Counted from the stretch's first letter, positions 9,750-23,701 are shown. The stretch: DNA of 64,000 nucleotides from an uncultured Candidatus Saccharibacteria bacterium (GCA_964468825.1 CAYXWO010000001.1:3234-67233); one strand, 5' to 3'. Program-made: numbers and translations. Notes: a model not told the origin generated them from the letters alone.

Positions 9750-9767
9750 GAGGGTATACTGGGCGAG

Positions 9768-9956
9768 CAGGCCGCTCTCGTGGTGTTCTGCGAAAAAACC
9801 AAGGCAACTTGCAACCTCTGCCACACCTTAGGCGAGGTATACATTCGGGTAGCGAGACCTCTCAGAATTTCTGATTGCGTCGACATACCGAAGGTTCTCA
9901 CTTCCAAGACAGACCAAGATCCTTCCCGAGGCCGCTCACGCGGCCTCTTTTTTATG
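9768..9956 (+). ncRNA. candidate GC-rich small RNA (unidentified) ending in an intrinsic terminator
   Basis: ~190 nt at ~58% GC with no ORF, starting after a TATACT hexamer at 9756-9761 and ending with GAGGCCGC-tcac-GCGGCCTC+T6. No match to SRP, tmRNA or RNase P consensus that I can verify by eye. Confidence 0.25.
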
Positions 9957-10015
9957 TAATTAGTAATGCAAAAGGGAGCACGAATGCTCCCTTTCTCACC
10001 ATTGGCCGTGAGACC

Positions 10016-10399
10016 TCAGTATTTGCGCGGACCGATGCGGTAGCACGCGATGTTTGCTACTAGATTCGCCACACCGAACGTCTTCGTCGCTTTGTTGAAG
10101 GCGAGATAGAGGAACGGCTGAAGAACTTCGGGCAGCTCATTGAAGTCCGTGGATGCCCAGTGATGACGGACCTCTTCGGTGACGTCGTCTGAATGGTTGA
10201 CCATGAAGCAATTCGTTTCCTCGAACCTGCAGGACTCAAGCACCGGGACCAGGTTCAGTACGCCGTCGATGACATCTCTGGTCTCTTCGAAAGTCATTTT
10301 GTACCAGAAGTCGTCATAGCCTTGGCCGTACCCGCAGAGGAATAAGACGTTTGGCAAGTACGAAGGGCTCATCGCCCTGGAGTTCATTGCGGTTGTCAT
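10016..10399 (-). CDS. hypothetical protein (127 aa), GC-rich foreign composition
   Basis: Complete ORF at ~55% GC, flanked by hairpin AAAGGGAGCA-cgaa-TGCTCCCTTT and an upstream -35/-10-like TTGACT/TAGTTT. Confidence 0.4.
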   Translation of the reverse strand: MTTAMNSRAMSPSYLPNVLFLCGYGQGYDDFWYKMTFEETRDVIDGVLNLVPVLESCRFEETNCFMVNHSDDVTEEVRHHWASTDFNELPEVLQPFLYLAFNKATKTFGVANLVANIACYRIGPRKY

Positions 10400-10689
10400 A
10401 GAGATCCATTTCTTTTCTGACGTGACGTGTCAGCCTGGCTCTAAACTATTCCAAGCTCAAGTAAAAGTCAAACGTCTAGACCCGCGTTCATAATGGAAAG
10501 AGATGAAGGAATATGTTAGAATTCGCGAATCAATAACTTCTAATTTATATTATTTATGTCACTCTCAATCGGCATGGAGCGAACACAAACCAACATTTCT
10601 TAAGTGTTGGAAATGAAAAACTTATACCGTTCCAGTTCAACATCAAGTTGCCTTTAAAATTAAATAGTTACGAGTAGGGGGGTAGGGCC

Positions 10690-11151
10690 ATGCTCTTTTC
10701 TAAGAAAACTCTTCAAAATATCCCTCACTGTTTCAAAGCGAGACCATTTTTAGAAATTGGTAATGTGCACTTTGATATACTTAGGATATACATGACAACA
10801 ATTAAGCAGAAAGTAGCACTAGAGAAACTAGTGGAAAACGGTGGTAACGTCACAAGAGCAATGATAGATGCTGGCTACTCAGAAGCAACAGCGAACAATC
10901 CCTCAAATTTGACTCATAGCGAGGGTTTTAGGTCTTTACTTAAGCAATATGGATTAGATGAAAGCTTAGTTGTTACGGCCCTTGTAGAGGATATTAAAGG
11001 TAAGCCATTGAATAGATCTAAGGAACTACTTCTTGCCTCAGAGATTTTAGGCATGAGAAAAAACGGAGCTCTCTCAATCAAAGTTCAAGATAATAAACCC
11101 GTAATTGTATATATGCCGCAGGTTCTCATCGAGAAGTTTCATCTTAATTAG
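10690..11151 (+). CDS. small-terminase-like HTH protein (Terminase_2 / SPP1 G1P-like 'AGYS' motif)
   Basis: 'LVENGGNVTRAMIDAGYSEATA' matches the TerS HTH (cf. SPP1 G1P 'LIDLNASRAAREAGYSPKTA'). Paralogous to the ORF at 19311-19826. Confidence 0.5.
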   Translation: MLFSKKTLQNIPHCFKARPFLEIGNVHFDILRIYMTTIKQKVALEKLVENGGNVTRAMIDAGYSEATANNPSNLTHSEGFRSLLKQYGLDESLVVTALVEDIKGKPLNRSKELLLASEILGMRKNGALSIKVQDNKPVIVYMPQVLIEKFHLN

Positions 11152-11300
11152 ACTCTTCTATTTTGATGTCTGTACACAGCATCCATAAGGCACAACAAAG
11201 CGTTTAACTCAGAGTAGGCTTTGTCGTTACTTATCTCAGTGCCATACTCTTGTCTGTAAATTTCCTTGTATCTCTCAATGTCTTTTTGAGCTATTTGCAT
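11148..11300 (-). CDS. small hypothetical ORF (50 aa), convergent with and stop-overlapping the TerS-like gene
   Basis: By-eye ORF MQIAQKDIERYKEIYRQEYGTEISNDKAYSELNALLCLMDAVYRHQNRRV. Below the track cutoff. Confidence 0.2.
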   Translation of the reverse strand: MQIAQKDIERYKEIYRQEYGTEISNDKAYSELNALLCLMDAVYRHQNRRV

Positions 11301-11376
11301 GTTATTTAAAAATTTATTATTTTGGCTATATTTTATGCTACTATATTAGAATCTAAAGACTCGTTTTAAAAGTAAA

Positions 11377-12789
11377 ATGACAAAAGAAGAAATAATTAAG
11401 AAGATAAAATACGGACTTGAAATAGCAAGTGAGCTTTCTGATCTTGAATTTAAAACAGCGACCAGCTCTATTCCAAATGATATCTGGCGAAGTATTTCAG
11501 CTTTTGCAAATCGAAGAGGTGGAGGCCTCATTGTCTTTGGAGTTGATGAGAGACAAAATGCAATCACTGGATGTGCAAATATTGATCAAATGCAAACAAA
11601 ACTCACAGAGATTTTTAATGACAAGATGAGTTTTATTTTGCGTCCTGAGTACCATGTAATCGATATTGATAATAAAACGATTCTTGCGGTAAATATTCCT
11701 GAGTGTCCAAAAGATTATATGCCTTGTTATTTTAAAAACGTAGGATTGCCCAACGGAGCATACATCAGAGAGGGGAATACGAGTAGAAAAATAACAGACA
11801 ACGAGTTTCGTACTTATGTTGCAACATCAAAAGAATTTCAATTTGATCTTTCCGAAGCCAGAGGGGCTAAGAGGGGTGATATTTCTGTAGATAAAGTCGA
11901 TGCGCTTTTACGGCAGAGTGAGTCTCAATTAAATAGGGGAGCTGATCACATTGTTAATGATTCTGTACTTGAAAATCTTGGAATAGTTTCTTTGTTCGAT
12001 GGTGAGTATAAGCCAACAATTGGGGGTTATTTAATTTTCGCAAAGGACATTCCTCAAAATAAAAGCCCTTATGATCGATATGCTGTGAGATGTATTCGTT
12101 ACATTGGTAGTGATCCTTCATCTGAGATAATTGATACTATTGATGTCGCCGGAACGCTTGATACTCAAATTGATGAAGCGTATAAATTTATCTTAAAAAA
12201 TATCTCTAAAAAAGCAGTCATTGTTGGAACTAAAAGAGTCGAGGGCTACGAGTATCCAGAGGCAGCTATTCGAGAACTTGTTGCTAATGCGGTTATACAT
12301 CGTGATTATAAAATTATTGAAACGTACACACAGATTAGAATTTTCCAGGATCGCATAGAAATTACTAATCCGGGATCGCTCCCGCCTGGAGTTAATGTTG
12401 ATAATCTTAAAGAAGCTCAGTTCAGTCGCAATTCAATGATTGCAGCAAGGTTGAAAGATATGAAATATCTTGAAGAGTACGGACGAGGTATTGATATTGT
12501 TGTTAAAAAAATGTCTGAATGGAGTTTGCCTTCACCTCTATTTAGAAATTCTGTAAACAGTTTTGAAGCGATACTCTTAGGTAATACTTATCAAGATATT
12601 AACGATAGACAAATAAAAATTATTGATGTTCTTTTGATTAAAGGTCGTTTGACTGCTGCTGACTGTTTGAAGATTCTAAAGGGAATACCTCGTGCGACAA
12701 TAAATGCAGATCTTAAAAAACTAAAAGACCTCGGTGTTATTGTCACAAAAGGTGCATCTGTGAACACGTATTACATGCTCGCTTTCTAG
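11377..12789 (+). CDS. Schlafen/AlbA_2 (divergent AAA) - HATPase_c_4 - wHTH protein ('RecG-like' transcriptional regulator family)
   Basis: N-terminal AlbA_2-like region, 'ELVANAVIHRDY' HATPase_c_4 motif, C-terminal HTH. Confidence 0.65.
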   Translation: MTKEEIIKKIKYGLEIASELSDLEFKTATSSIPNDIWRSISAFANRRGGGLIVFGVDERQNAITGCANIDQMQTKLTEIFNDKMSFILRPEYHVIDIDNKTILAVNIPECPKDYMPCYFKNVGLPNGAYIREGNTSRKITDNEFRTYVATSKEFQFDLSEARGAKRGDISVDKVDALLRQSESQLNRGADHIVNDSVLENLGIVSLFDGEYKPTIGGYLIFAKDIPQNKSPYDRYAVRCIRYIGSDPSSEIIDTIDVAGTLDTQIDEAYKFILKNISKKAVIVGTKRVEGYEYPEAAIRELVANAVIHRDYKIIETYTQIRIFQDRIEITNPGSLPPGVNVDNLKEAQFSRNSMIAARLKDMKYLEEYGRGIDIVVKKMSEWSLPSPLFRNSVNSFEAILLGNTYQDINDRQIKIIDVLLIKGRLTAADCLKILKGIPRATINADLKKLKDLGVIVTKGASVNTYYMLAF

Positions 12790-12993
12790 AAGCTTTTAGA
12801 AGCAATTTAAAAATGTATTGAAAACAAAGAGTTAATTATGCTTATTCTGGTCCTAATTATTTAGATGCGATTAGAAGCATTTCTTTCGGTCCAAAAATAA
12901 TCTAAAAAGTAAAAGGCACCCATTTAGGGTACCTCTCATGTCTAGTATTTACAGTTTACGCAACAGCGGTGCCTTAAATCAAATGGCAGGGAT

Positions 12994-13383
12994 TTAGATA
13001 ATTTCGATCAATTTAAGGAGTTCTTTCTCTCTTTCAGCTTTCAGTATTTGAGCACGCTTAGAAAGCTCTATGAGGGAGAATGGAGGTTTGACATTCATAT
13101 CCATTGTCTCCTTTGGTTTGCCTATTACTTGATTGAGGAGAAAAGCAGCGACTCTTGGGTCCGGTAATTGACGGTAGACAACCTTCTCTCCATTTTCATC
13201 CTCGGTCTCGTAGTAGGACCCTTTAGCAAGTTCAATCTGACCAGTCAAAATCGGCTCTAGTTCTTCAGCTATACGCGTAACAGCATATTTCCTCGCTTCC
13301 TCAGCTTTGATGCTTGCTAAGCCTCGTTTACGGCCCGCGCCAAGCCTTCTACCTCCTCGTGTCGTTGTTATCTCCATATCCAT
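12994..13383 (-). CDS. hypothetical protein with basic Gly/Arg-rich N-terminus (RGGRRLGAGRKRG)
   Basis: Complete ORF of host-like composition. The AT-hook-like N-terminus suggests DNA binding. Confidence 0.45.
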   Translation of the reverse strand: MDMEITTTRGGRRLGAGRKRGLASIKAEEARKYAVTRIAEELEPILTGQIELAKGSYYETEDENGEKVVYRQLPDPRVAAFLLNQVIGKPKETMDMNVKPPFSLIELSKRAQILKAEREKELLKLIEII

Positions 13384-13510
13384 ATTATATTACAAAATAA
13401 GGCGATTTTATAGCATAAAAGAATTGATTAAATCAAATAATCAAAATCTTTTAATTTAACAACATAAATAAATATTGCTATAATTTACCTTGATACATAA
13501 ATACTAAAAT

Positions 13511-13978
13511 ATGAAATTTGAGACCCCTAAATTTGAGACACCTAACTTTTTGAAAGAATTCACCATAAGTGAGGCACAGCAAGTGTCTGAGATTTTTAAA
13601 ACTAACCCACATGTTCGCTCTGTTAGTTTGATAGGAGCTGTAAAACAAACACAAAAAATGCACTCCCTGCGTTTTGTTATTGAAGTTGATAGTGATGAGT
13701 TGTTTCATAATTTCGCAGAAAGCTTTTCAAAAGAAAAAGGTGATGCAATTATTGCACCGGAGAGACGATTAGAAGCACTTTCACGCGTACTCGGAGACGA
13801 TTTACTATTTAAGATTGATGAGAGTTTTACTCATGATAAACATGCAGGAAATTTCATTGATGCAGTCATCGTTCCGCCAGGTTGGCAGTCAAAAATTGAC
13901 TTTGTTCAAAGCCGATTACCCTTTGACGATATAACGACAGCTGAACTTATTGATGCACTTAAACTGTCAGAATCATAA
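13511..13978 (+). CDS. hypothetical protein (155 aa); weak nucleotidyltransferase-like G[AS]...DxD pattern
   Basis: 'LIGAV...VIEVDSDE' only loosely resembles a minimal NTase motif. Confidence 0.4.
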   Translation: MKFETPKFETPNFLKEFTISEAQQVSEIFKTNPHVRSVSLIGAVKQTQKMHSLRFVIEVDSDELFHNFAESFSKEKGDAIIAPERRLEALSRVLGDDLLFKIDESFTHDKHAGNFIDAVIVPPGWQSKIDFVQSRLPFDDITTAELIDALKLSES

Positions 13979-14038
13979 TTAAGTGGAATTATTACCGAAC
14001 CTAGATTACCAATGCCTATTGACAAAACTATATAATGT

Positions 14039-14068
14039 GTGCTATAATAAAAAGAACAAAGCTCTTTA
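14039..14068 (+). promoter_or_regulatory. consensus sigma70 promoter TTGACA-18-TATAAT
   Basis: Perfect hexamers, then SD GGAGG and ATG at 14086. Confidence 0.4.
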
Positions 14069-14085
14069 ACTAACGGAGGTGTGTC

Positions 14086-14577
14086 ATGGAGGGAACTCCT
14101 TTGCTTATTTCGTATCTTAGCTTTTTCTTCCAAGCCTGGAAGAAAGCTTACAACCTCGGCTGGATATTTCACCGGATGGTGGAAGCTCACGGCATAGAGG
14201 TTGCGCTAGCCTTTTTTAAGGAGGCTGAAGCAGCAGGCTACCCACTGGTAGCGAAGGCTACTCGCGCGCACGCTGGTACTCCGTTCTTCTTGACGGTGGT
14301 CAACAAGAGGTTCTCTGATTGGGTGTTTGCAAAGACCCCAACAGAAGAAACTTTTGTGAAGAACGTTCTTGCGAACGCGCAAAGGCTTCAAGCCACAGAA
14401 GAGATGTGGGGTGCGGCCAGCAAGGAATGCGCAGAAGATCTGCGTCAACGTGGGTGGGAAGCACTTGATACCTTAGGTGGAAAGACCAAGGGGCTCAAGA
14501 TGAATCAGCTTCGCTACGATACTCGTGGGCGTAGGACCGGCAAGGGCGCACCAGAAAGAACCTGGGCAAAAAAATAA
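14086..14577 (+). CDS. hypothetical protein (163 aa), GC-rich cassette inside the island
   Basis: ~52% GC versus ~38% for neighbours, with its own promoter, SD and terminator. Confidence 0.45.
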   Translation: MEGTPLLISYLSFFFQAWKKAYNLGWIFHRMVEAHGIEVALAFFKEAEAAGYPLVAKATRAHAGTPFFLTVVNKRFSDWVFAKTPTEETFVKNVLANAQRLQATEEMWGAASKECAEDLRQRGWEALDTLGGKTKGLKMNQLRYDTRGRRTGKGAPERTWAKK

Positions 14578-14610
14578 GAAGATTGCAGTTTGCGCACTGC
14601 ATTCAGAGAA

Positions 14611-14638
14611 GTCGACCTGTCCCGGTCGGCTTTTTTTT
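14611..14638 (+). terminator. intrinsic terminator GTCGACC-tgtcc-CGGTCGGC+T8
   Basis: Hairpin followed by a T-run. Confidence 0.55.
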
Positions 14639-14677
14639 GTTACACTTTCAACATACTTAAGTTAAAATTATCTATCT

Positions 14678-17600
14678 ATGAACGACGAAGCACCTCGCCA
14701 CCCTTGGGGGTTTAGCGCTAACACAGAAAAGCCTCCAGTAGAATTAAGCGCTCTAGCTAAGGAGTGTGGTGTTTCTGAAAAGGAAATACGTGAAGTATTA
14801 ATAAAATTAGGATGTGCAAAGCCGGAGCGTAAAGATGTACTACGCCCGCGATCTGGTAAGCCTGCAATACGAAAATCGACCCTTACTTGCTTATCTGTAG
14901 ACGCAGAACAGGTGAGAAGATATTATAAAATCGAAAATGAATCCCCATCAGTAAATGAAAATGAAAAAGAGGTAACTCAAGATAACAAACCGCCTAAAAA
15001 CTGGCCTTCGCTCGGAAGATTAAGAATAAAATTGGGGCTTGAAAGAAGTGAAATTAGGTCTTGTCTTCATGAGGTGACACTATCTGGTTTGCGCTCTGGA
15101 TTAGCAAATACTCCATTTGGAGCTTTGGTGCAGAAAAGTACTTCAGAAATGACAGTTGAATATAATGGTGTCACTTATATTTCGCCAGAAGTTGCTGAAA
15201 GACTTACAGAGTTGTCTACAACAATTTTCAGAAAACGTGATGGAGGAAAGTATCTAGATGCTTCACAAGCAATTCAGGAGCTAGGACTCGCTGATGGTAA
15301 GCCAGAAGATGCGAATGAAAAATTAAAACAGGAAATAGACAATTTTCTACAAAAATATCCTTGGTTATCTAAGGAGATAGTTGAAAAAGCAGATATTGCT
15401 GGTGGTCCTGCTACAATATACTATTCAAGAGATTTGCTTTCTTTTATTCGTAAGATAAATGAAAGCGATAATAGCTTTGTGACTGCAACTGAAGATGTTC
15501 CGGAAGGGTATATATCTGAGCGAGACATAATAAACTCGTTAGAGCTATTTCCTTCTAAGTTAGAAGTACTTAAAAAGAAAGTTTTGACAGAAGTCACTCT
15601 AGAGAAACCTATTGTTGGACTTTTCAAGCCGGGGAGTAAAGCAAAAAAAATTGAATATTTTTATTCACCAGAGCTTTTTAAAAAAATTAGTGAACTAAAG
15701 ATTTTTGACGAATCTCTACGCGAAGAAACTCTCGACGAAAGTCAGGGAGAACTGATCGTATTTGATGTTGAAACAGAAACACCAGAAGGATATATTTCAA
15801 AAAGAGAGTGTATTTCTATACTGGACATAACCCCCGAAAAATTCGAGAGATTAGTCATGGAGGTGTCCCAGCATCATCCTGAATTTTCTCGCCCAACAGT
15901 AGCTATACCCAGAACAAATCGCTCATTGCGACCACGAATTTTTTATTCGCAAGAATTAATCAAAGCTATTTCTGAATTTAAGACAGCAAATGAAAAAGAC
16001 TCTCCAGTAGAAATAAAACAAGAGGCTATTCCAGAGGGTTATATATCTCTACTTGATTGCACTATTAGTTTAGGTATAAGCGCAAATAAAGTTCAACAGT
16101 TGGTAGATGAATGTCTTTATCTTCGACCAACACTAAAGCAAGAAGGGGTAATAAACAGAAGAAGAGGACAGTCTCGTGGCCTCAGTGTGTTTTACTCGCC
16201 TGAACTCGTGTCAGCAATAACTGAACTAAAACAAAAAAATGATAAACTTCAACGAGAAAAAATTGAAGATGCCCAGAGAATCCTAGAAGAAACAATAAAA
16301 TTAAAAGAAAGGCTAGCTTCTGTGCTCGATGATATAAGTCGAGGTTTGCCTGAAACCGCTCCCTTTAGGAGGGCTGTATCACTTTTCGGCGGAGCAAGAA
16401 CAATAGATCTTCTTAAAAAATTCTACCCCGAATTTGTAGAAATTCCAGCTCAATATATGCAAAAGGAGGTCGCTTCGTACTTAAGTGACTATATGGTTTC
16501 TCGTTCAGAAAATGTTATTGAAGACCTGGACGCAGCAGTACCCTTCCTTCATGAGAAAGTTTTTAGTGAGACCCTGTTTACTATCTTGAAAAATAACTGT
16601 GCGATCTACTATAGCAAAAAAAAGAGAGAGTCACGAGAGCGGACAGACCAGGAAATTCTAGATGAGTACTACTTAATATTGGAGCAAAAAGCTGAGTTAC
16701 TCAAGAGTAATGAACTTAGAGTGGTAGTTAAAGGCATTGAGGAATATATACAGTCATTACTTAATGATTTTCAAAAACCTGAAGCAATTGTCGATGAACT
16801 TAATGCTGGAAGAGAATTCCCTGACCTAAATCAAATTATTAATATCAAAGAGGTTGCAGATAATAGACATGTATTGATTGGAGATGAGATGGGAATGGGG
16901 AAAAGTGGGTCGGCTATTTTATCGAAAGAATACCTCGGAGTAAGTACCGCGATCGTCATTGCCCCAAGCAATGCAATTGATATGTGGAAAGAGTACTTAT
17001 CTGCTAACGTATCTCCATCTGGAAAGCAAGTCGGGTACTTTAAACCAGGGAAGGCACCTCGGGTTCTTGAAATTCAGAGTGTTGACGACTTAAGTAAAGC
17101 ACGAAGTCAGGAATACGATTATGTCCTTATATCTCACGATCGAATTAGTGAAGAACTAGCAACTAAATTAAGAGAGGTATCTTACGAGATGGTAATTGTT
17201 GATGAAGCGCATAAATTCAAAAATATTACTGGAGGCAAAAGATCTAACGCCTTGCTGGGCATGTTAGAGGATTGTGAAGATAGAGATACATACACAGTAC
17301 TCCTTTCGGGTACGCCAATTCCAAATAAAATTCGAGATATGGCTATAATTTTAAAATTATTATACCCAGACAGATTTGGGCATATGGATAACAACTTATT
17401 GGTTTCAAGTATTATTAGAGGAGATCTCACTGATTTGCGTGAGTTACTTCTATTAAGGACTCAGATGAAAAAACTATCTGAAAGTATTCAAATGCCGAAA
17501 AAAGAGGAACGGTTGGACTTTGTAACTTTATCTGAAGGAGAAAGGGAGCTTTATCAGGTAGTAATGGAAGATGATCAAATGAATTCCATGGAAAGGCTTT

Positions 17601-19261
17601 CTGCTTTACGTTTGTTTTGTTTAAACCCGAGGAAAGTCTTTCCAGATAGTAAGATGGTAGGTTCAAAAATTACTGAGGCAGAAAGTAGTATTGCTACTTT
17701 TTTTGAAACAAAAGATAAACTAGTTTTTTTTGTTAATGGGTATGTTTACGGAGTCATACGTGGCGAAAATTCAGTGTTATCTCAAATGAAAATGCCTGAA
17801 GGGGTTACGGTAAGAATTATTGATGGAGACACCTCACGAGAGGAGCGCCGTGAAATTGAACAAGAATTAAAATATACAAGTAATGGAAAGATTTTACTCG
17901 TGGTAAATGGTGGGGCCGCTGATGTTGCTGTCGATTTCTCTGCGGCAGAAGGGGTGCAATTTTACAATGAGCCTTGGACAAAATTTGATAAAATGCAACA
18001 GACATCGAGAGTTTATCGGCCAGGATTAAAACATGATATTGAAGTCGGAACATCGGTAACAAGGGGTTCTGTTGAGGAGGGGATGCATTATTATATTGAA
18101 ATGAAATACCGTGCCGTTGTAAAACTTCTTGAAGGGATACCTCTGTCAGAAATGGAAAAATCACTCCTTCTCCTAGATGAAAAGGCGTCAGATGTTGTTT
18201 CAGTTGATAAGGATTTTGGATTTGCTGAGGAGTGGCTCCAGACTCCGATGGGTAGACTTAACAGGTTTTCTAAAATGACGAAAGAAATCGGTGAAAAGGA
18301 ATTTGTTTCAAGATTTCTTCCAGAACATGGGGAGGCATACGCTTCTTTCTACGAAGAGTTGGAGACTCATAGTTTCGAAGCAAATACCGCTCGCTTTGTG
18401 GCTACTCTAATTGAAGAGTATCGAAAAGAAAAAGATCTTCCTGTTGATATAACTGTCTTGGATTTGGCATCTGGTCCAGAAATGTTACGAAAACGCATGC
18501 GAACTGAAACAAATGAAAATGTGTATAGCCTCGACATAAACCCAGAACACTTTAAAGGAAGAGGTGGTAAACAGGTGGTTGGAGGTCTTACTAAACTTCC
18601 ATTCCGTGATTCTTCAATAGACTATGTAAATTTATCTCACTCACTTCATTATTCGTCTTTTCGACCAGAAAAAGGAGATTATGAAAGACTGACTGTCTTA
18701 GCAGAGATTTCAAGAGTTCTTAAAGTTGGTGGCAGAGTCACGATTAATTTGGCGCATACTCAGAGCTTTAGAAGTCTGGAAAGGTTGGGTGAGATAGCAG
18801 ACGAAATGGGGCTAACAATCATCAATGCTAAAACTGGACTAGTTGTATCTGATAATAATTATATGTCACCATGTGTAACATTTGAAAAAGTAGAAGAGAT
18901 AGACCTGTCTTCGACATTGACTGAACTAAAATCTAGAAGAAGGTACACACTCTACGGATTACGTCTAGACACTCATCGGGCAACAAAAAAATTACATAGC
19001 ACTCAAAAAATCGCAAAGGATTTTTCTATCCATGGACAGACTATGGAAACGATTCTTAACAAGGAAGATATGGTTTTGCTAAGTGAACAAGAAGAAATAC
19101 AAAATGAGGGAGACAGACTTATAAAACAATATGGCGGAAGCGTAGCTTTGATTCCCAAAGAGGAAATTCAAGAACGAGGATTCTTACGCTACACTTCAGG
19201 TAATAAGAGCCGACTTGTAAAGAAAGGTAGTCATAGTAAGACCTTTATATATGTGAACTAA
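14678..19261 (+). CDS. giant multidomain protein: N-terminal tandem ~90-aa repeats + SNF2-family helicase + class I SAM-dependent methyltransferase
   Basis: SNF2 motifs GDEMGMGKS / IVDEAHKFKN / LLSGTPIPNK / QQTSRVYRPG. MTase motifs VLDLASGPE / LPFRDSSIDYV / LKVGGRVTI. Three clear 'PEGYIS...FYSPEL..I.ELK' repeats at aa ~275-520. Confidence 0.8.
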   Translation: MNDEAPRHPWGFSANTEKPPVELSALAKECGVSEKEIREVLIKLGCAKPERKDVLRPRSGKPAIRKSTLTCLSVDAEQVRRYYKIENESPSVNENEKEVTQDNKPPKNWPSLGRLRIKLGLERSEIRSCLHEVTLSGLRSGLANTPFGALVQKSTSEMTVEYNGVTYISPEVAERLTELSTTIFRKRDGGKYLDASQAIQELGLADGKPEDANEKLKQEIDNFLQKYPWLSKEIVEKADIAGGPATIYYSRDLLSFIRKINESDNSFVTATEDVPEGYISERDIINSLELFPSKLEVLKKKVLTEVTLEKPIVGLFKPGSKAKKIEYFYSPELFKKISELKIFDESLREETLDESQGELIVFDVETETPEGYISKRECISILDITPEKFERLVMEVSQHHPEFSRPTVAIPRTNRSLRPRIFYSQELIKAISEFKTANEKDSPVEIKQEAIPEGYISLLDCTISLGISANKVQQLVDECLYLRPTLKQEGVINRRRGQSRGLSVFYSPELVSAITELKQKNDKLQREKIEDAQRILEETIKLKERLASVLDDISRGLPETAPFRRAVSLFGGARTIDLLKKFYPEFVEIPAQYMQKEVASYLSDYMVSRSENVIEDLDAAVPFLHEKVFSETLFTILKNNCAIYYSKKKRESRERTDQEILDEYYLILEQKAELLKSNELRVVVKGIEEYIQSLLNDFQKPEAIVDELNAGREFPDLNQIINIKEVADNRHVLIGDEMGMGKSGSAILSKEYLGVSTAIVIAPSNAIDMWKEYLSANVSPSGKQVGYFKPGKAPRVLEIQSVDDLSKARSQEYDYVLISHDRISEELATKLREVSYEMVIVDEAHKFKNITGGKRSNALLGMLEDCEDRDTYTVLLSGTPIPNKIRDMAIILKLLYPDRFGHMDNNLLVSSIIRGDLTDLRELLLLRTQMKKLSESIQMPKKEERLDFVTLSEGERELYQVVMEDDQMNSMERLSALRLFCLNPRKVFPDSKMVGSKITEAESSIATFFETKDKLVFFVNGYVYGVIRGENSVLSQMKMPEGVTVRIIDGDTSREERREIEQELKYTSNGKILLVVNGGAADVAVDFSAAEGVQFYNEPWTKFDKMQQTSRVYRPGLKHDIEVGTSVTRGSVEEGMHYYIEMKYRAVVKLLEGIPLSEMEKSLLLLDEKASDVVSVDKDFGFAEEWLQTPMGRLNRFSKMTKEIGEKEFVSRFLPEHGEAYASFYEELETHSFEANTARFVATLIEEYRKEKDLPVDITVLDLASGPEMLRKRMRTETNENVYSLDINPEHFKGRGGKQVVGGLTKLPFRDSSIDYVNLSHSLHYSSFRPEKGDYERLTVLAEISRVLKVGGRVTINLAHTQSFRSLERLGEIADEMGLTIINAKTGLVVSDNNYMSPCVTFEKVEEIDLSSTLTELKSRRRYTLYGLRLDTHRATKKLHSTQKIAKDFSIHGQTMETILNKEDMVLLSEQEEIQNEGDRLIKQYGGSVALIPKEEIQERGFLRYTSGNKSRLVKKGSHSKTFIYVN
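15493..16245 (+). repeat. three (possibly four) diverged tandem ~250-285-nt intragenic repeats encoding 'PEGYIS' modules
   Basis: Repeat units start near 15500, 15783 and 16032 (ccgGAAGGgTATATatct / ccaGAAGGaTATATttca / ccaGAGGGtTATATatct). Confidence 0.5.
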
Positions 19262-19310
19262 AAAGAGGCCTTATAGATTGAATACCAAGAGAAGTATTTA
19301 CATCTACGAA

Positions 19311-19826
19311 CTATTTCTCAACTATAATTCTCATACCTGTTATAGGCTCTACGAAACGATTCGTCTGTTCAATTTTTGCAGTTGAGTAATTACCTTTTAG
19401 CTTATGGGCCATATCAAGAGCAGCTTTAATCGCTTGAGTGTCTGGCACAGCATAGAAGGCGAGTTTTGCATTCCCAGAGGGGCGAATCGAAATGACGTAA
19501 AGACCACAGGATTCGAGATGTTCTCGTATCTCAGTATCTTCAAGATTTTTATCAAAAGAGATATAGGTAATATGCTTTTGGTTAAATAGTCTCTTGTGTT
19601 GGTCCATGATGTACTCATTCGGAAGAAACTCTTCTAAAAGAGTGGTCCAGTTCTCAGAGCTTGTGAGCTTACTTGGTGTTTTAATCGTTGCTTCTGAGTA
19701 ACCTGCTGTACGCATAGCCATAGTCACAGACCCACCATTTTCCACTAAAGCTTTCATTGCCTTCCTCTGTTTCGTTGTAGCCTTTGCCTTAATGATTTTA
19801 ATTGACTTTGTATCACTATTTACCAT
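19311..19826 (-). CDS. small-terminase-like HTH protein (paralog of 10690-11151), inverted orientation
   Basis: 'ALVENGGSVTMAMRTAGYSEATIKTPSKLTSSE' is ~50% identical to the ORF A N-terminus over ~50 aa. Nucleotide identity is also visible (ttagtggaaaatggtgg vs ctagtggaaaacggtgg). Confidence 0.5.
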   Translation of the reverse strand: MVNSDTKSIKIIKAKATTKQRKAMKALVENGGSVTMAMRTAGYSEATIKTPSKLTSSENWTTLLEEFLPNEYIMDQHKRLFNQKHITYISFDKNLEDTEIREHLESCGLYVISIRPSGNAKLAFYAVPDTQAIKAALDMAHKLKGNYSTAKIEQTNRFVEPITGMRIIVEK

Positions 19827-19900
19827 ACTTTAATGGTATCAAATTATTATATGAATCGCACTTTTTGAAAAGGTCTTACCAGAGTGGTACAATTCTAGAT

Positions 19901-20893
19901 ATGGAAAAGGACCCTCTTCTCACGGCAAAACTTATCTACTTTTGTGAAAAAATTTTGGAGTCAAAGCGTGATGGGGACCAATTTACTTCTGTTAGCTATG
20001 CTCCGCTTCTTGGCATGACCAGAGATGAGGTTTCTGACTTGATTCATCTTCTTAAAACTAAAAAACTTGCAAAGTGGGAATATGTCATCAAAACAGTTCA
20101 AGACGATGAGGGGCGGGACGTTGAGGTTGATTTTGATTCGTTGAGTTTTAACAAACGAGGGATTAAGGAGTATGTGAAAAAATTAAAGAAAGGTCTTAAG
20201 GAAAGTCCCACTATTAAACGAGAAGAGTTGTTGCGAATCAGAGAGCAGGTCAACTCTATATTTAACAAGAAAGCATGTATGCGAGTGCTTGCTAAGTTTT
20301 ATTCTACGGATGATCTTTATATCTATTTTCACTATGATAAGTATGTTCTTGTAGACCTACTTCTGAGCCATGCATACTCGAATAAAGTGTCACTTGCAGA
20401 AGTGCTTGCTGAGTTCCTCAATCCCGTCTACTACAACCTTGGTGAAGAAGGAAAATCAGAGCAGTTATTTCACTTCATCGATAAAGTCTTTTCTTTATGT
20501 GCAACTGAAAAAGATTATAATGAGTGGCAAGAAAAAGCATCAAAGTATATTACCACTATACAAAAGAAAATGAGCTCAAAAAAGAATAGTCATAATGAGA
20601 TTGAAATCGTTGGTGGAAATGTTAATTTTAAAGATATCACAATGCCGATTGAGAGAGGCCATAAAAAGATGTTTATTGAGCTCAACAAAACTCCTCAGAT
20701 TAATAGAAATGGAAAACTATTTAAGCAAGGTGAAAAGGTCCATAGAAGTGTGTTGCAAAGCGTCGCATATCGAGATGAAGACTCATTCAGAGCAGCGCTA
20801 GCCAAACTTAGAACAAAACTTAGGGAATCTGGTCTCCCTGTTGAGATTGTGAATGATACTACTAATCACTATATGCTAACGATCAATTATTAA
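19901..20893 (+). CDS. putative transcriptional regulator with C-terminal OmpR/PhoB-type winged helix
   Basis: C-terminus 'ALAKLRTKLRESGLPVEIVNDTTNHYML' fits the trans_reg_C pattern (LRxKL...P..I.TVRGxGY). Start moved to the ATG at 19901 to avoid overlap with the divergent gene. Confidence 0.45.
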   Translation: MEKDPLLTAKLIYFCEKILESKRDGDQFTSVSYAPLLGMTRDEVSDLIHLLKTKKLAKWEYVIKTVQDDEGRDVEVDFDSLSFNKRGIKEYVKKLKKGLKESPTIKREELLRIREQVNSIFNKKACMRVLAKFYSTDDLYIYFHYDKYVLVDLLLSHAYSNKVSLAEVLAEFLNPVYYNLGEEGKSEQLFHFIDKVFSLCATEKDYNEWQEKASKYITTIQKKMSSKKNSHNEIEIVGGNVNFKDITMPIERGHKKMFIELNKTPQINRNGKLFKQGEKVHRSVLQSVAYRDEDSFRAALAKLRTKLRESGLPVEIVNDTTNHYMLTINY

Positions 20894-21044: not shown

Positions 21045-21239
21045 ATGGACGATAAGAAAGCGCAAAAAGAAATCAAGGTGAGTTATCAGGAGGTATCTGA
21101 TGACCCGGAAGTAATCAATCAAAAAATTGAGGAGGCTTTTGATGCGCTATTTGAAATCGTCTATAAAAATTATTGGTTAGACATTCAAAACTATGGCACA
21201 ACAAAACAAAGACGAGATCTTGGCGAAGAAGCTGAGTGA
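21045..21239 (+). CDS. small hypothetical protein (64 aa), paralog of the next ORF
   Basis: Shares an 'h..YxK/N-YWL' motif with the ORF at 21193-21384. The two overlap by 47 nt in different frames. Confidence 0.3.
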   Translation: MDDKKAQKEIKVSYQEVSDDPEVINQKIEEAFDALFEIVYKNYWLDIQNYGTTKQRRDLGEEAE

Positions 21240-21384
21240 CGTATTGGCAAAGCATTACGAAAAGTATTGGTTAGCTGAAAAGAGAGGTAAGGTAAATTAT
21301 CAAGAGATAAACGATACGCTTGTGGTACATATCAAGCAAGTACTTACGTTTTACGAGAATAGTAAACGAGCCTATGGAAAATAA
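21193..21384 (+). CDS. small hypothetical protein (63 aa), translationally coupled to Prim-Pol gene
   Basis: Its stop overlaps the Prim-Pol ATG (tATGgaaaaTAA). Confidence 0.3.
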   Translation: MAQQNKDEILAKKLSDVLAKHYEKYWLAEKRGKVNYQEINDTLVVHIKQVLTFYENSKRAYGK

Positions 21385-23431
21385 ATTCAAAACGGCAGCA
21401 CTTAACTATCACAAGAAAGGGTTCTCGGTTATCCCGCTAAAGCCACAAAGTAAGATTCCAATGCTTACGCACTGGCAACAGTATTCAACTACAAAATCGA
21501 CAGTTGAGGAAATTGAAAAGTGGTGGACCGAGACACCGAATGCAAATATCGGGGTTGTATGTGGTCCAGCTGGTGGAAGATTTTTGTTCGTTGTCGATCA
21601 AGATGTGCTCAAAGACGAAAACAAGATTCCTATGCTGGATGAAAATGGAGACTTCAAGGAGCGTGGTGATATACGAGGTTGCCCTCCGACAGTTCTTCAA
21701 ACAAGTGGTAGTGGCGGCAAGCAGATGTTCTATTTTGCACCAAAGGGATATGAGGTTGGTAATCGTATTGGTGTACGCCGTCTTGTGGATGTGAAGGGAC
21801 TTAATGGTCAGGTGGTTGTACCACCATCAATTCATCCCAATGGGAAGGAGTACTCGTGGGATTGGGAAGACCTTGATCCAGCTAGCATAACCGAGTTTCC
21901 TAAAGAGGATCTAGACGCATTCTTGGGAGTGAGTAGTGACGGCAAAGATTCAGTTGATAAAGTTCTCGCTGGCGTTCCTGTAGGAGAAGGGAAAAGGCAT
22001 ATTGGCATCGCACAGGTCGCTGGATACTACTTGAGAAAAGCAAAGTCTCCCGCAGAAATAGATATGGCAAGAATAGCTGTCTATGCATGGGATAAGATAG
22101 TGAATAAGTCTCCTGAGCCAGAAATGGAGAGACGGAAGGAGATCGATAACGTGTTTGACGGTATTCTCAAACTAGAGCAAACAAAGAGAGGTAAGCAAAC
22201 TTCCTCATCAGGTAAAGCTGAAAAGAAATTCGTTGAGCCTAAGTTGTGGCAAATCAGTGATATCTTAACGACTGATTTCGGAGAGGAGGAGTGGGCAGTA
22301 GAAAATCTCATATCTAAGCAAGGTATCACAGCTCTTTCAGGAAATCCTGGCGACTTCAAAACATGGCTAACGATTCATACAGCGCTCTGTGTCGTCCGTA
22401 ACGTGCCGGTGTTCGGTAAGTTTAAAGTGACACAAGGCAATGTGCTCATTATAGATGAAGAGGACCATATCAGGTTACTTAAAAAGAGACTGGAGCTTCT
22501 TGGTGCCAAAGAGAGTGACGAAATTCATTATCTCTCTCAAGGTGGCATAAAAGTTGATAACGAAGATGTGCTTGAATTCATTCTTAGGATTATCGAGGAC
22601 AAGGATATTAAGCTCGTGATACTCGACTCACTTGTGAGAATTCATGATCAAGAAGAGAACGATGCGAGCGGTATGTCGACTGTGTTTAGCAACTTACAGA
22701 AATTTATCACCGCTGGGGCATCAATACTCTTTACTCATCATCATAGAAAGCAAACTGGGTTCGGTAGTAGCAATGCAGGGCAGAGCATGAGAGGTTCTTC
22801 GGATATATTGGCCGCTGTGGACTGTCACATTATGATTGAAAGAAAGCGTGAAGAGGAACACAGACTCATCATAAAGCAGACAAAGTTAAGACAAGCTGAG
22901 CTATTACCAGCGTTTGAACTCAGTGTCACTCAGGGTGAGCATGGTCCATCGGGTTTCGAGTATATCGGTGATTATGATGAGCGTAGAAATAAGGCTGAAG
23001 AGGTAGCTGAAGCAATCATACTATTGCTCTCAGACGGCATGAAGAATCGCTCAGAGTTGCAAGAAATACTTATTGATGAATACGGTAAGACGGTAATTGA
23101 TGATGGCATAAAAATCGCACAAGAGATGGAAAAGATTGAACGTGTACCGAAAGAAGAGATACCAAAGGCTGACAGGAAGAAGGCCTACTATAGAGTACCA
23201 GGAGTCACGAGTGCCCACATTCAAAATGATCTTCCTGTTTCCTTAACATATATAGATGACGGGAAGCAGGAAGATGAATACGCGTACTTAGTTGAAAGTG
23301 AAGGAGAGCTAAGTGTATGTTGTAAAGCTCCGATGTATGGAGGCGCCCAGTGTAGCGCATGTGGCGCAGATGGTAAGTTCTATACCGACGAGGAGATGGA
23401 GCAAAAGGTTCTTAACTTCCAGAATAGCTAG
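21374..23431 (+). CDS. replication protein: bifunctional primase-polymerase (Prim-Pol) N-domain + RepA/AAA_25-like ATPase + C-terminal Cys cluster
   Basis: 'GFSVIPL..K.P...W', 'ANIGVVCG', 'VVPPSIHPNGKEYSW', then a RecA-fold region (VLIIDEEDH, LVILDSL) and CC..C..C at the C-terminus. Confidence 0.7.
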   Translation: MENKFKTAALNYHKKGFSVIPLKPQSKIPMLTHWQQYSTTKSTVEEIEKWWTETPNANIGVVCGPAGGRFLFVVDQDVLKDENKIPMLDENGDFKERGDIRGCPPTVLQTSGSGGKQMFYFAPKGYEVGNRIGVRRLVDVKGLNGQVVVPPSIHPNGKEYSWDWEDLDPASITEFPKEDLDAFLGVSSDGKDSVDKVLAGVPVGEGKRHIGIAQVAGYYLRKAKSPAEIDMARIAVYAWDKIVNKSPEPEMERRKEIDNVFDGILKLEQTKRGKQTSSSGKAEKKFVEPKLWQISDILTTDFGEEEWAVENLISKQGITALSGNPGDFKTWLTIHTALCVVRNVPVFGKFKVTQGNVLIIDEEDHIRLLKKRLELLGAKESDEIHYLSQGGIKVDNEDVLEFILRIIEDKDIKLVILDSLVRIHDQEENDASGMSTVFSNLQKFITAGASILFTHHHRKQTGFGSSNAGQSMRGSSDILAAVDCHIMIERKREEEHRLIIKQTKLRQAELLPAFELSVTQGEHGPSGFEYIGDYDERRNKAEEVAEAIILLLSDGMKNRSELQEILIDEYGKTVIDDGIKIAQEMEKIERVPKEEIPKADRKKAYYRVPGVTSAHIQNDLPVSLTYIDDGKQEDEYAYLVESEGELSVCCKAPMYGGAQCSACGADGKFYTDEEMEQKVLNFQNS

Positions 23432-23488: not shown

Positions 23489-23701
23489 ATGGAATTTTAC
23501 ACAAGAAACGAGGTTGCGAAATACTTTAGAGTGCATGAGAGAACAATTGACCGCTGGATAGAGAGCGGTAGTTTGAAGGGGTATAAGTTTGGTGATGGTA
23601 AAACAGCTACGCTTCGTATACCAAAAGGAGAGGTCGAAAGGTTTTTAGAAGATCACAGAAGTGATAAAAAACAAGATGGAAAAAATAAATCAACAAAATA
23701 A
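23489..23701 (+). CDS. excisionase/Xis-family HTH DNA-binding protein (candidate RDF)
   Basis: 70 aa. 'NEVAKYFRVHERTIDRWIESG' is an HTH_17-like helix. Confidence 0.55.
   Translation: MEFYTRNEVAKYFRVHERTIDRWIESGSLKGYKFGDGKTATLRIPKGEVERFLEDHRSDKKQDGKNKSTK

What the first reader, a model, noticed from the sequence alone, without database searches (positions are those of the whole stretch)
10690..19826. Inverted pair of TerS-like HTH paralogs bracketing an 8-kb cargo (Schlafen-like ATPase, two small unknowns, SNF2-MTase giant)
Seen in sequence: the ORFs at 10690-11151 (+) and 19311-19826 (-) share ~50% identity over their N-terminal ~50 aa (TTxKQxKAxxxLVENGGxVTxAMxxAGYSEATxxxPSxLTxSE), with residual nucleotide identity. 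They face each other across exactly the block that contains the candidate defence-like cargo.

Inference: a recent inverted duplication of a DNA-binding gene around a cargo module is unusual. It could mark a recombinationally exchangeable 'cargo cassette' within the element, or two packaging-specificity determinants. This parallels how satellites carry variable defence hotspots.
Basis: partly seen in the sequence, partly recalled or inferred. Interest (0 to 1): 0.65.

Follow-up and report, generated by a model that had tools for sequence, protein, structure and literature searches.

The report
Satellite-like island with two small terminases
The two facing genes are not a recent duplication but two anciently diverged phage small-terminase (DNA-packaging) genes, each a separately swappable module, inside a 14.7-kb integrated island that looks like a phage satellite of an uncultivated, probably ultra-small (Patescibacteria/CPR), bacterium.

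Summary
ORF-A (true start 10792, ends 11151, +) and ORF-B (19311-19826, -) share 57% identity over 51 N-terminal residues.

The "recent inverted duplication bracketing a cassette" reading fails:
- Third-codon positions are saturated (29% identical), and the longest exact DNA match is 14 nt.
- The A-B similarity equals that of any A-type x B-type pair from unrelated elements.
- None of 139 related loci carries two such genes.

Both genes belong to small-terminase (TerS) families. In viral contigs their homologues sit directly upstream of a large terminase. A's model matches SF6 and NV1 TerS structures.

An empty-site contig delimits a 14.7-kb island (about 10576-25263) inserted into the first codons of ychF. 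It carries a large serine recombinase, an HTH_17 gene, a Prim-Pol/AAA_25 replicase and two TerS genes. It has no large terminase, capsid or portal, which is a PICI-like layout.

Related islands carry one TerS plus different cargo (SIR2-HerA, HEC-01, AbiU2). Close relatives of A (92%) and B (94%) match the window only across the gene itself, so each TerS is its own exchangeable module.

Best reading: a phage satellite with two packaging-specificity determinants. A-type TerS pair mostly with Terminase_3 and B-type with GpA-type terminases (p=0.002). Function is inferred, not shown.

The parts
10562..10575 (+). attL core (CTCTCAATCGGCAT). It marks the left junction of the island, inside the original first codons of ychF. 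The native ychF promoter and ATG (10555) lie just to the left and now point into the island.
   Evidence: The empty-site contig L158 aligns 1-1310 to window 9249-10575 and 1294-2098 to window 25261-26065. The core is found three times against 0.01 expected.
10792..11151 (+). ORF-A: A-type small-terminase-like protein of 119 aa. It has an N-terminal HTH, two core helices and C-terminal beta strands. It is the first gene of the island.
   Evidence: The AF2 model has pLDDT 76. Foldseek top hits are the SF6 and NV1 small terminases, and the DNA-binding domain reaches TM 0.75. A-type homologues lie directly upstream of TerL in viral contigs. Purifying selection against L011: 42 synonymous versus 10 non-synonymous codon differences.
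11148..11300 (-). Small 50-aa ORF of unknown function, convergent with A.
   Evidence: No family hit.
11377..12789 (+). Cargo: Schlafen AlbA_2 + HATPase_c_4 + C-terminal wHTH protein (470 aa).
   Evidence: Pfam E = 9e-20 and 4e-22. phrog_12156. Only weak PADLOC hits, to pAgo-associated Schlafen models.
12994..13377 (-). 127-aa ORF with an N-terminal GGRRLGAGRKRG motif; function unknown.
   Evidence: Gene call in L222. Only a marginal phrog_15261 hit.
13511..14577 (+). Two ORFs of unknown function (155 aa at 13511-13978 and 163 aa at 14086-14577).
   Evidence: Searches gave no family hits. Both are called as genes in L222.
14678..19261 (+). Cargo: 1527-aa giant. It has an N-terminal region with three 'PEGYIS' repeat units, an SNF2 helicase and a class-I SAM methyltransferase (Methyltransf_11).
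   Evidence: Pfam. phrog_62. PADLOC matches only through the SNF2 core (ZorD, DrmD, DpdE).
19311..19826 (-). ORF-B: B-type small-terminase-like protein of 171 aa. It has the same HTH, followed by a beta-alpha-beta-beta insertion (residues 84-128) and a conserved ALDMAxKLKG helix.
   Evidence: The 36-42%-identical homologues sit immediately upstream of TerL and portal in phage contigs L007 and L012/L013. One homologue carries PF03592 Terminase_2. Purifying selection against L220: 41 synonymous versus 10 non-synonymous codon differences.
19901..20893 (+). 330-aa ORF of unknown function, divergent from B. It is the first gene of the rightward core operon.
   Evidence: Gene calls in L222-L224. Only 3 homologues among 5.8 billion proteins.
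20642..20655 (-). Third, inverted, exact copy of the 14-nt att core, with dyad symmetry (CAAT-CGGC-ATTG), inside the 330-aa ORF. Unexplained.
   Evidence: (I4). It is not conserved in the 92.5%-identical relative L224.
21045..21384 (+). Two small ORFs (64 and 63 aa). The 63-aa one is homologous to the small gene that precedes the AAA_25 helicase in islands L004 and L009.
   Evidence: E = 6e-5. Gene calls.
21374..23431 (+). Replication protein: Prim-Pol fused to an AAA_25 helicase.
   Evidence: Pfam E = 2e-31 and 1e-26. The helicase part is 30% identical to the AAA_25 proteins of L004 and L009.
23489..23701 (+). 70-aa HTH_17 (AlpA/excisionase-type) protein directly upstream of the recombinase. 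It is the candidate regulator or directionality factor.
   Evidence: sequence. The precomputed Pfam hit PF12728 is on the identical gene in L222/L223. L004 and L009 have the same arrangement.
23676..25316 (+). Large serine recombinase (Resolvase + Recombinase + Zn_ribbon_recom). Its last 14 or so codons read across attR into host sequence.
   Evidence: Gene call. Junction.
25264..25277 (+). attR core (CTCTCCATCGGCAT). The island supplies a replacement ychF start codon at 25255 (MSSLSIGIVG versus the native MSLSIGIVG).

Best explanation
**What it is.** The region belongs to a 14.7-kb integrative island, from about 10576 to 25263.
- A large serine recombinase inserted it into the first codons of ychF. 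The host is probably a Patescibacteria/CPR bacterium.
- The core set is a recombinase, an HTH_17 regulator/excisionase, a Prim-Pol/AAA_25 replicase and small terminase(s).
- There is no large terminase, capsid, portal or tail gene. This is the layout of a PICI-type phage satellite.

**The two genes.** A and B are two different, anciently diverged members of the phage small-terminase (TerS) family.
- Their shared 51 residues are the DNA-binding HTH that the whole family conserves.
- Each gene arrived as its own discrete module. They did not arise by duplication within the island.

**Proposed mechanism (inferred, not shown).**
1. When a helper phage infects, the island excises and replicates.
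2. A and/or B bind island DNA and recruit the helper's large terminase.
3. The island is then packaged into helper capsids.
4. Two TerS types would let the island exploit two helper lineages with different terminase families.

The genes between and around the TerS genes are accessory cargo, possibly defence or counter-defence. This cargo differs from island to island.

**Confidence.** The descriptive part (two distinct TerS-family genes in a recombinase-delimited island, not a duplication or a bracket) I hold at about 0.9. The mechanistic part (satellite packaging with dual-helper specificity) I hold at about 0.45. The single figure given is a blend of the two.
For: **Shown here**

1. Island limits.
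- Empty-site contig L158 (holin 100% and YchF 99% identical) joins window 10575 to 25261.
- A shared core lies at both junctions.
- L141 is a second empty site. L140 has a different island (recombinase 49% identical) at the same site.

2. Core genes.
- Large serine recombinase, HTH_17 and Prim-Pol + AAA_25.
- No structural or lysis family hit in any island ORF.

3. TerS identity.
- Of 54 ORFs immediately downstream of A/B homologues in viral contigs, 18 hit Terminase_3, 17 hit Terminase_6N and 8 hit GpA_ATPase.
- B-type homologues lie upstream of TerL and portal in L007 and L012/L013.
- A's model matches full-length SF6 and NV1 TerS, and the SF6 DNA-binding domain at TM 0.75.
- The three best PDB profile hits for the A family are TerS.
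- One B homologue carries PF03592.

4. Not a duplication.
- 12 of 51 codons are identical and third-position identity is 29%.
- The pair's 56.9% identity lies inside the distribution of 530 A-type x B-type cross pairs (mean 47.9, sd 10.5).
- B is up to 63% identical to A-types elsewhere.

5. Island family.
- L004, L009, L005, L128, L131, L134, L136, L137 (A-type) and L001/L002 (B-type) combine one TerS with a serine recombinase and no TerL hit.
- L004, L009 and L001/L002 also carry an AAA_25 or Prim-Pol replicase.
- Their cargo differs: SIR2+HerA, HEC-01A/B, AbiU2, DUF4238.

6. Modular exchange.
- L011 (A 92% aa) matches the window only at 10676-11147.
- L220 (B 94% aa) matches only at 19312-19865.
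- L224 (o363 88% aa) matches from 19861 on.

7. Both genes are under purifying selection: 42 synonymous versus 10 non-synonymous, and 41 versus 10.

8. Different partners.
- A-type TerS sit next to Terminase_3 in 11/21, Terminase_6N in 7/21 and GpA in 2/21.
- B-type TerS sit next to GpA in 6/13, Terminase_6N in 2/13 and Terminase_3 in 0/13.
- Fisher p = 0.0018.

**Established knowledge**
- The PICI core is integrase, regulator, primase-replicase and terS (plus capsid morphogenesis). Accessory genes flank the core.
- Tyrosine and serine integrases are treated as exchangeable components (PMC10085698).
Against: - No helper phage was identified. The closest viral TerS are only 66% (A, N-terminal 90 aa) and 40% (B) identical.
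- No excised circle or attP junction was found in IMG/VR.
- No capsid-remodelling gene was recognised.
- The TerL association is a tendency, not a rule. It rests on 34 non-redundant phage loci.
- B sits at a divergent promoter next to the core operon. That position would also suit a regulator.
- In L136 and L137 the A-type gene lies directly upstream of the recombinase, where excisionases usually sit.
- No other island has two TerS genes, so selection for the dual arrangement is undemonstrated.
- Host assignment to Patescibacteria is indirect. It rests on the taxonomy of genomes carrying A-type genes and on syntenic contigs of 0.78-0.85 Mb.
Confidence: 0.55

Rival explanations
1. First reader's model. 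A recent inverted duplication of one DNA-binding gene brackets an 8-kb cargo cassette. The repeats then allow the cassette to invert or be exchanged by recombination.
For: The two genes are inverted relative to each other. They share 57% identity over 51 aa and a 61-nt, 70%-identical inverted repeat. Cargo does vary among related elements.
Against: - Third-codon positions are saturated (29% identical), and only 12 of 51 codons are identical.
- The longest exact match is 14 nt.
- Outside the HTH the proteins differ in length and architecture.
- The A-B identity is ordinary for any A-type x B-type pair.
- None of 139 related loci has two copies.
- Homology breakpoints with close relatives lie at the borders of each gene, not at a bracket.
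Confidence: 0.03
2. The TerS-like proteins have been co-opted for something other than packaging the island. One possibility is a transcriptional regulator or recombination directionality factor (B at the divergent promoter, A next to the att site). Another is a decoy that poisons the terminase of infecting phages, which would be an interference or defence function comparable to SaPI Ppi or PICI Rpp (from my own knowledge of those systems).
For: - B and the 330-aa ORF are divergently arranged, with overlapping promoter-like hexamers.
- In L136 and L137 the A-type gene is immediately upstream of the recombinase.
- After integration the native ychF promoter points at A. That would give constitutive expression, which suits a defence role.
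- Neighbouring cargo in relatives is anti-phage.
Against: - Full-length conservation with phage TerS covers the core helices and, for A, the C-terminal strands. This argues that more than the HTH is retained.
- The island already has a dedicated HTH_17 gene in the excisionase position.
- The B homologue in L002 is not at a divergent promoter. It lies at the distal end, after HerA.
Confidence: 0.25
3. The island is a decaying prophage or a mosaic of leftovers. The two TerS genes are passengers with no present role in this element.
For: - There is no TerL, capsid or portal.
- The dual-TerS arrangement is unique among 139 loci.
- Mosaic breakpoints surround both genes.
Against: - The same compact architecture (serine recombinase + TerS, often with a replicase, + variable cargo, in roughly 9-15 kb where both ends could be seen) recurs in many genomes.
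- Both TerS genes are intact and show strong purifying selection.
- Precise att junctions and a restored ychF start indicate an intact, site-specific element.
Confidence: 0.1

Closest known systems
Phage-inducible chromosomal islands (PICIs, including SaPIs), as defined for SatelliteFinder (de Sousa et al. 2023, PMC10085698)
   Same: - Integrase at one end.
- AlpA/HTH_17-type regulator.
- Primase-replicase.
- terS without terL.
- No structural or lysis genes.
- Size of about 10-15 kb.
- Accessory (often defence) genes flanking the core.
   Different: - A large serine recombinase instead of the usual tyrosine integrase.
- No recognisable capsid-morphogenesis gene.
- Two TerS genes of different subfamilies.
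- The host is probably Patescibacteria. I found no paper describing satellites in that group.
- Induction by a helper phage is untested.
PLE of Vibrio cholerae
   Same: A satellite that integrates with a large serine recombinase and has its own replication initiator. Some PLEs carry a TerS homologous to that of PICIs (PMC10085698; PMC9638900 and PMC7145576 listed).
   Different: No homology to PLE genes was detected. The replicase type differs (Prim-Pol/AAA_25). PLEs are restricted to V. cholerae and phage ICP1.
SPP1/SF6 G1P-type small terminase (Terminase_2, PF03592; PDB 3ZQQ, 2CMP, 4ZC3)
   Same: - An N-terminal HTH with the KQxxF/A...GN/GxxTxAxxxAGYS motif.
- Helical core and C-terminal strands in A.
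- Gene position upstream of TerL in phage homologues.
   Different: - Neither A nor B reaches the Pfam threshold.
- B has a roughly 45-residue alpha/beta insertion.
- In this island neither gene is next to a terminase.
P4-like satellites with variable defence hotspots
   Same: Conserved core genes, with cargo that differs between otherwise related elements and is enriched in anti-phage systems.
   Different: - No P4 core genes (psu, delta, sid, alpha, epsilon).
- The variable positions are not bracketed by a repeated gene.
- The TerS genes themselves are among the exchanged modules.

Membership tests
PICI-type phage satellite | Site-specific integrase at one end, with defined att sites | tested here: met
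   The large serine recombinase at 23676-25316 is the last gene. attL and attR are defined by the empty-site contig L158. SatelliteFinder treats serine and tyrosine recombinases as exchangeable (PMC10085698).
PICI-type phage satellite | Regulation module (alpA, merR or stl homologue) | tested here: met
   The 70-aa ORF at 23489-23701 has a precomputed PF12728 HTH_17 hit on the identical gene in L222/L223. No Stl-like repressor was identified.
PICI-type phage satellite | Primase-replicase module | tested here: met
   Prim-Pol (E = 2e-31) fused to AAA_25 (E = 1e-26).
PICI-type phage satellite | Small terminase present, with no large terminase or other structural or lysis genes | tested here: met
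   There are two TerS-family genes. No terminase-large, capsid, portal, tail or lysis hit was found in any island ORF with Pfam, PHROGs or NCBIfam. Four ORFs remain unknown.
PICI-type phage satellite | Capsid-morphogenesis (size-redirection) gene | tested here: not met
   No hit. This component is described as more frequent in proteobacterial PICIs and is not universal (PMC10085698).
PICI-type phage satellite | Excision, replication and packaging induced by a helper phage | not testable with these tools
   No helper phage was identified. The attP junction is absent from IMG/VR.
Phage small terminase (TerS; SPP1/SF6 G1P-like, Terminase_2) | N-terminal HTH DNA-binding domain of the TerS type | tested here: met
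   - A's model superposes on the SF6 DNA-binding domain (TM 0.74-0.75, rmsd 1.7-2.5 Å).
- The three best PDB hits of the A-family profile are the SF6 TerS, at E = 0.09, 0.09 and 0.57, which is weak.
- phrog_51 TerS hit at E = 2e-3.
- B shares this domain with A.
Phage small terminase (TerS; SPP1/SF6 G1P-like, Terminase_2) | Sequence reaches the Pfam family threshold | tested here: not met
   No Pfam family for A or B at E <= 0.01. Only one distant B homologue (P0013) carries PF03592.
Phage small terminase (TerS; SPP1/SF6 G1P-like, Terminase_2) | Gene lies immediately upstream of the large terminase in phage genomes | tested here: met
   This holds for the family: 43 terminase-domain hits among 54 downstream ORFs, plus L007 and L012/L013. 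It does not hold for A and B themselves, which is the satellite signature.
Phage small terminase (TerS; SPP1/SF6 G1P-like, Terminase_2) | Oligomeric ring that binds pac DNA and stimulates TerL | not testable with these tools
   Only monomer models were made.
   The repeat is 61 nt at 70%, and the longest exact run is 14 nt. No att-like core lies at either gene. The only internal att-like copy is at 20642-20655, outside the bracket.
   None of 139 loci has two A/B-like ORFs (HMM search, E <= 1e-5).

The most novel reading that the evidence does not exclude
Patescibacteria (CPR) bacteria host a previously undescribed family of PICI-like phage satellites.
- They are integrated by large serine recombinases and carry anti-phage cargo.
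- They swap small-terminase genes as discrete 0.5-kb modules taken from the local phage pool.
- This island, with an A-type and a B-type TerS, would be a dual-helper satellite able to hijack two phage lineages that use different large-terminase families.
Probability: 0.4. Interest if true: 0.65.

Novelty: new variant of a known kind. Interest (0 to 1): 0.5.

Why it matters
- Almost nothing is known about how the ultra-small CPR bacteria exchange genes or resist phages.
- If these islands are satellites, they would be a route for moving defence systems (SIR2-HerA, HEC-01, AbiU2, RM) between CPR cells. The systems would travel inside phage particles.
- The small-terminase gene would then mark which phages each island exploits.
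- A satellite with two terminase-specificity genes would be a natural test case for how satellites widen their helper range.
- The specific claim handed to me, a recent inverted duplication forming an exchangeable cassette, is not what is there.

Tried and rejected
- tblastn of A and B against 50,697 GenBank phage records gave no match.
- Pfam and NCBIfam gave nothing meaningful for A or B.
- The PDB profile search with the B family gave only spurious hits. Foldseek with B's model was weak, with SF6 TerS ranked second at E = 6e-3.
- Rfam found nothing for the structured-looking region 9755-9960.
- I looked for a second TerS-like gene in every related locus by tblastn and by family HMMs. None was found.
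- I checked whether the 171-aa gene next to A in L011 is a B homologue. It is not. It matches the 172-aa neighbour of A in L009.
- I checked whether the ORFs after B in L221 and L002 are truncated terminases. No similarity was found.
- I searched IMG/VR for the predicted attP junction and for relatives of the recombinase. Neither was found.
- I considered a tandem or composite of two complete islands. I rejected it because there is one recombinase, one replicase and one attL/attR pair. Acquisition of B as a single-gene module fits the breakpoints better.
- I considered the internal inverted att-core copy as an inversion site tied to the A/B pair. It lies outside the bracket, inversion would split the 330-aa ORF, and the copy is not conserved in L224.
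- I could not place the host taxonomically from the window itself.

Full report
**1. The observation**

- The ORF listing shows ORF 10690-11151 (+) and ORF 19311-19826 (-).
- BLASTP aligns residues 37-87 of the first ORF with 17-67 of the second. That is 29/51 identical (57%), E = 4e-17, and nothing else aligns.
- At DNA level the only inverted repeat between them is 61 nt at 70% (10829-10889 / 19687-19747). The longest exact run in the alignment is 14 nt.
- So the similarity is real and far above chance, but it is confined to one domain.
- ORF-A almost certainly starts at ATG 10792 (119 aa). All 27 homologues start there, and the 92%-identical gene in L011 is called at 119 aa.
- B's coordinates are confirmed by the gene calls on identical contigs L222 and L223.

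**2. What the two proteins are**

Database searches gave two non-overlapping homologue sets:
- 45 hits of about 110-140 aa for A.
- 19 hits of about 165-200 aa for B.

The two family alignments match each other at 99.8% probability, but only over 71 N-terminal columns. After the HTH the two types differ:
- A-type proteins continue with two helices and short C-terminal strands (AF2 pLDDT 76).
- B-type proteins carry a beta-alpha-beta-beta insertion and then a conserved ALDMAxKLKGxY helix.

Evidence that both are small terminases:
- A's model finds the full-length small terminases of SF6 (3ZQQ) and NV1 (7JOQ) first. It superposes on the SF6 DNA-binding domain at TM 0.74-0.75.
- The A-family profile's three best PDB hits are the SF6 TerS, although weak (E = 0.09-0.57).
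- A has a weak phrog_51 'terminase small subunit' hit.
- One B homologue carries PF03592.

The strongest evidence is positional:
- Scans of IMG/VR returned 34 B-like and 80 A-like loci, many on 35-43-kb contigs.
- The ORF that overlaps or follows the TerS-like gene is usually 400-600 aa and is followed by a 600-700-aa ORF.
- Of 54 such downstream ORFs, 18 hit Terminase_3, 17 hit Terminase_6N and 8 hit GpA_ATPase.
- B-type genes at 36-42% identity lie just before TerL and a portal-sized gene in L007/L008 and L012/L013.
- Both families are therefore genuine TerS families of phages, largely phages of uncultivated hosts. GenBank phages have no match.

**3. Not a recent duplication**

- Over the 51 shared codons only 12 are identical, and third-position identity is 29%, which is saturation.
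- The window's A x B identity (56.9%) sits inside the distribution of 530 A-type x B-type pairs from unrelated elements (mean 47.9, sd 10.5; 18% of pairs are as high or higher).
- B is up to 63% identical to A-types elsewhere. A is up to 59% identical to other B-types.
- There is thus no extra similarity in cis. The shared stretch is simply the family's conserved DNA-binding domain.
- Both genes are under purifying selection against their nearest relatives. A versus L011 gives 42 synonymous and 10 non-synonymous codon differences. B versus L220 gives 41 and 10.

**4. The element they sit in**

Flanking genes:
- Host genes run up to 9749: ClpB, tRNA-Tyr, MsrA, RNase HII, HIT and a holin-4-like protein.
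- Host genes resume with YchF at 25255, followed by a sigma factor, AlaRS and ribosomal proteins.

Junctions:
- A metagenome scan with YchF found an empty site. L158 (holin 100%, YchF 99% identical) aligns 1-1310 with window 9249-10575 and 1294-2098 with window 25261-26065.
- L141 is also empty.
- The junctions share the core CTCTC(A/C)ATCGGCAT, at 10562-10575 and 25264-25277.
- The predicted attP has 6-bp inverted arms around CGGC (read from the sequences).

Consequences of the insertion:
- The island (about 10576-25263, 14.7 kb) is inserted within the first eight or so codons of ychF.
- It supplies a replacement start codon (MSSLSIGIVG for MSLSIGIVG).
- The recombinase ORF reads across attR.
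- The 127-aa minus-strand ORF at 10016-10399 is host DNA, because it is present in L158.

Gene order, left to right:
1. A
2. a 50-aa ORF (-)
3. Schlafen AlbA_2/HATPase_c_4
4. a 127-aa ORF (-)
5. two unknown ORFs
6. the SNF2-methyltransferase giant
7. B (-)
8. a 330-aa unknown ORF
9. two small ORFs
10. Prim-Pol/AAA_25
11. HTH_17
12. the large serine recombinase

These calls rest. No large terminase, capsid, portal, tail or lysis gene is detectable.

**5. Relatives**

Contigs carrying homologues show a recurrent small island with one TerS-like gene, a serine recombinase, often a replicase, and different cargo each time:
- L004: HEC-01A/B | A | HEPN_AbiU2 | ... | 63 aa | AAA_25 | HTH_17 | recombinase.
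- L009: HEPN + 172 aa | A | ... | 63 aa | AAA_25 | HTH_17 | recombinase.
- L005 and L128: DUF4238 | A | ... | recombinase.
- L001/L002: recombinase | Prim-Pol | ... | SIR2 + HerA | B | 252 aa.

These come, with PADLOC assignments. Further points:
- The window's 63-aa ORF and its AAA_25 domain are homologous to those of L004 and L009.
- Genomes that carry A-type genes are mostly Patescibacteria: Saccharibacteria, Pacebacteria, Peribacteria and Parcubacteria.
- Contigs syntenic with the window's host are 0.78-0.85 Mb. This fits CPR genomes but is not proof.
- L140 has a different island at the very same ychF site. Its recombinase is 49% identical. It carries type I RM and PDC-S11, and no TerS within the 8 kb available.

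**6. Is the pair a bracket?**

- tblastn and family HMMs find exactly one A/B-like ORF in each of 139 loci. The pair is unique to this island.
- Close relatives define where exchange really happens:
  - L011 (A 92% aa, 82% nt) matches the window only at 10676-11147.
  - L220 (B 94% aa, 89% nt) matches only at 19312-19865.
  - L224 (the 330-aa gene and downstream, 92.5% nt) matches from 19861 onwards.
- The flanks are unrelated: NUDIX and HD_4 next to B in L220, and other genes next to A in L011.
- Each TerS gene with its short upstream region is therefore its own mobile module of about 0.5 kb.
- Cargo does vary between islands. It varies gene by gene, on both sides of the TerS, and not as a block between two repeats.

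**7. Mechanism**

- The gene set matches the PICI definition (integrase, alpA-type regulator, primase-replicase, terS, no other virion genes, accessory genes around the core; PMC10085698). It uses a serine recombinase, as PLEs do (papers listed).
- My best explanation is that the island is a phage satellite. A and B would be packaging determinants that bind island DNA and recruit a helper's large terminase.
- Support for two specificities:
  - In non-redundant phage loci, A-type TerS pair with Terminase_3 (11/21), Terminase_6N (7/21) and GpA (2/21).
  - B-type TerS pair with GpA (6/13), Terminase_6N (2/13) and Terminase_3 (0/13).
  - Fisher p = 0.0018.
- Shown: the anatomy, att sites, family membership by position and fold, modular exchange, and purifying selection.
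- Inferred: helper dependence, packaging and dual-helper use.
- Rivals:
  - Co-option as a regulator, directionality factor or terminase decoy. B lies at a divergent promoter. After integration, A lies downstream of the native ychF promoter. In L136 and L137 the A-type gene sits just upstream of the recombinase.
  - Functionless remnants. The recurrent architecture and the purifying selection argue against this.

**8. Cargo**

- The Schlafen-type protein and the SNF2-methyltransferase are plausible defence or counter-defence genes. PADLOC matches them only through generic domains, so 'defence cargo' in this island is a suggestion.
- In the relatives the cargo is clearly anti-phage.

**9. Novelty and verdict**

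- Full-text searches found no description of phage satellites in Patescibacteria.
- The element is best rated as a new variant of a known kind: a PICI-like satellite with a serine recombinase, in a CPR-type host, with two TerS subfamilies.
The TerS assignment and the 'two packaging determinants' option survive. The duplication and bracket ideas do not.

Noticed in passing
window 20642-20655 (minus strand), inside the 330-aa ORF 19901-20893: A third, inverted, exact copy of the 14-nt att core. It has its own dyad symmetry (cTCtCAAT-CGGC-ATTGtGAt). Only 0.01 matches are expected by chance in the window. It falls in a locally divergent stretch and is not conserved in the 92.5%-identical relative L224. 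Its role is unknown. It could be a pseudo-att site, a recombinase-binding site, or a trace of a past event.
   Followed up: partly
window 10494-10600 and 25217-25316: The island sits in the first codons of ychF and brings a replacement start codon. The native ychF promoter and ATG now read into the island towards ORF-A. The recombinase ORF's last 14 or so codons are host-encoded across attR, so its C-terminus would change on excision.
   Followed up: partly
L140 1-10059 (JACCDT011932098.1): A different island occupies the same ychF att site in a 96%-identical YchF background. Its recombinase is only 49% identical. It carries type I RM (HsdM, HsdS) and a PDC-S11 protein. No TerS-like gene lies in the 8 kb available. 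The site therefore behaves as an integration hotspot for competing elements.
   Followed up: partly
window 9755-9960 (+): A GC-rich intergenic stretch after the holin-4-like gene ends in a strong terminator hairpin. It folds better than shuffles (z = -2.85) and is conserved in the empty-site contig, but has no Rfam match. It may be a host small RNA.
   Followed up: partly
window 14678-16600 (N-terminal third of the 1527-aa protein): Three repeats of a unit of roughly 130-180 aa, each beginning (V/T/I)PEGYIS followed by an HTH-like segment, precede the SNF2 and methyltransferase domains. The DNA repeat is 15491-15517 / 16022-16048.
   Followed up: no
L009 8806-9324 (-) and L011 4579-5094 (-): A 171-172-aa gene of unknown function (71% identical between the two loci) lies divergently next to the A-type TerS in two islands. 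It is absent from the window, where attL takes its place.
   Followed up: no
L220 and L224 (both from JGI sample 3300047563), equivalent to window 19861-19865: Two short contigs from one sample carry the B gene and the 330-aa-ORF operon separately. Their homology to the window stops at the same 5-bp point in the B/330-aa intergenic region. This suggests a recombination breakpoint, or strain variation that breaks the assembly there.
   Followed up: partly
viral loci of alignment A4 (TerL genes downstream of A/B-like TerS): Some of the large-terminase ORFs carry intein or Hint domains (Intein_splicing in 2, Hint_2 in 1, Hom_end_hint in 1). One ORF downstream of a B-type TerS is a Cpn60/TCP-1 chaperonin.
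   Followed up: no
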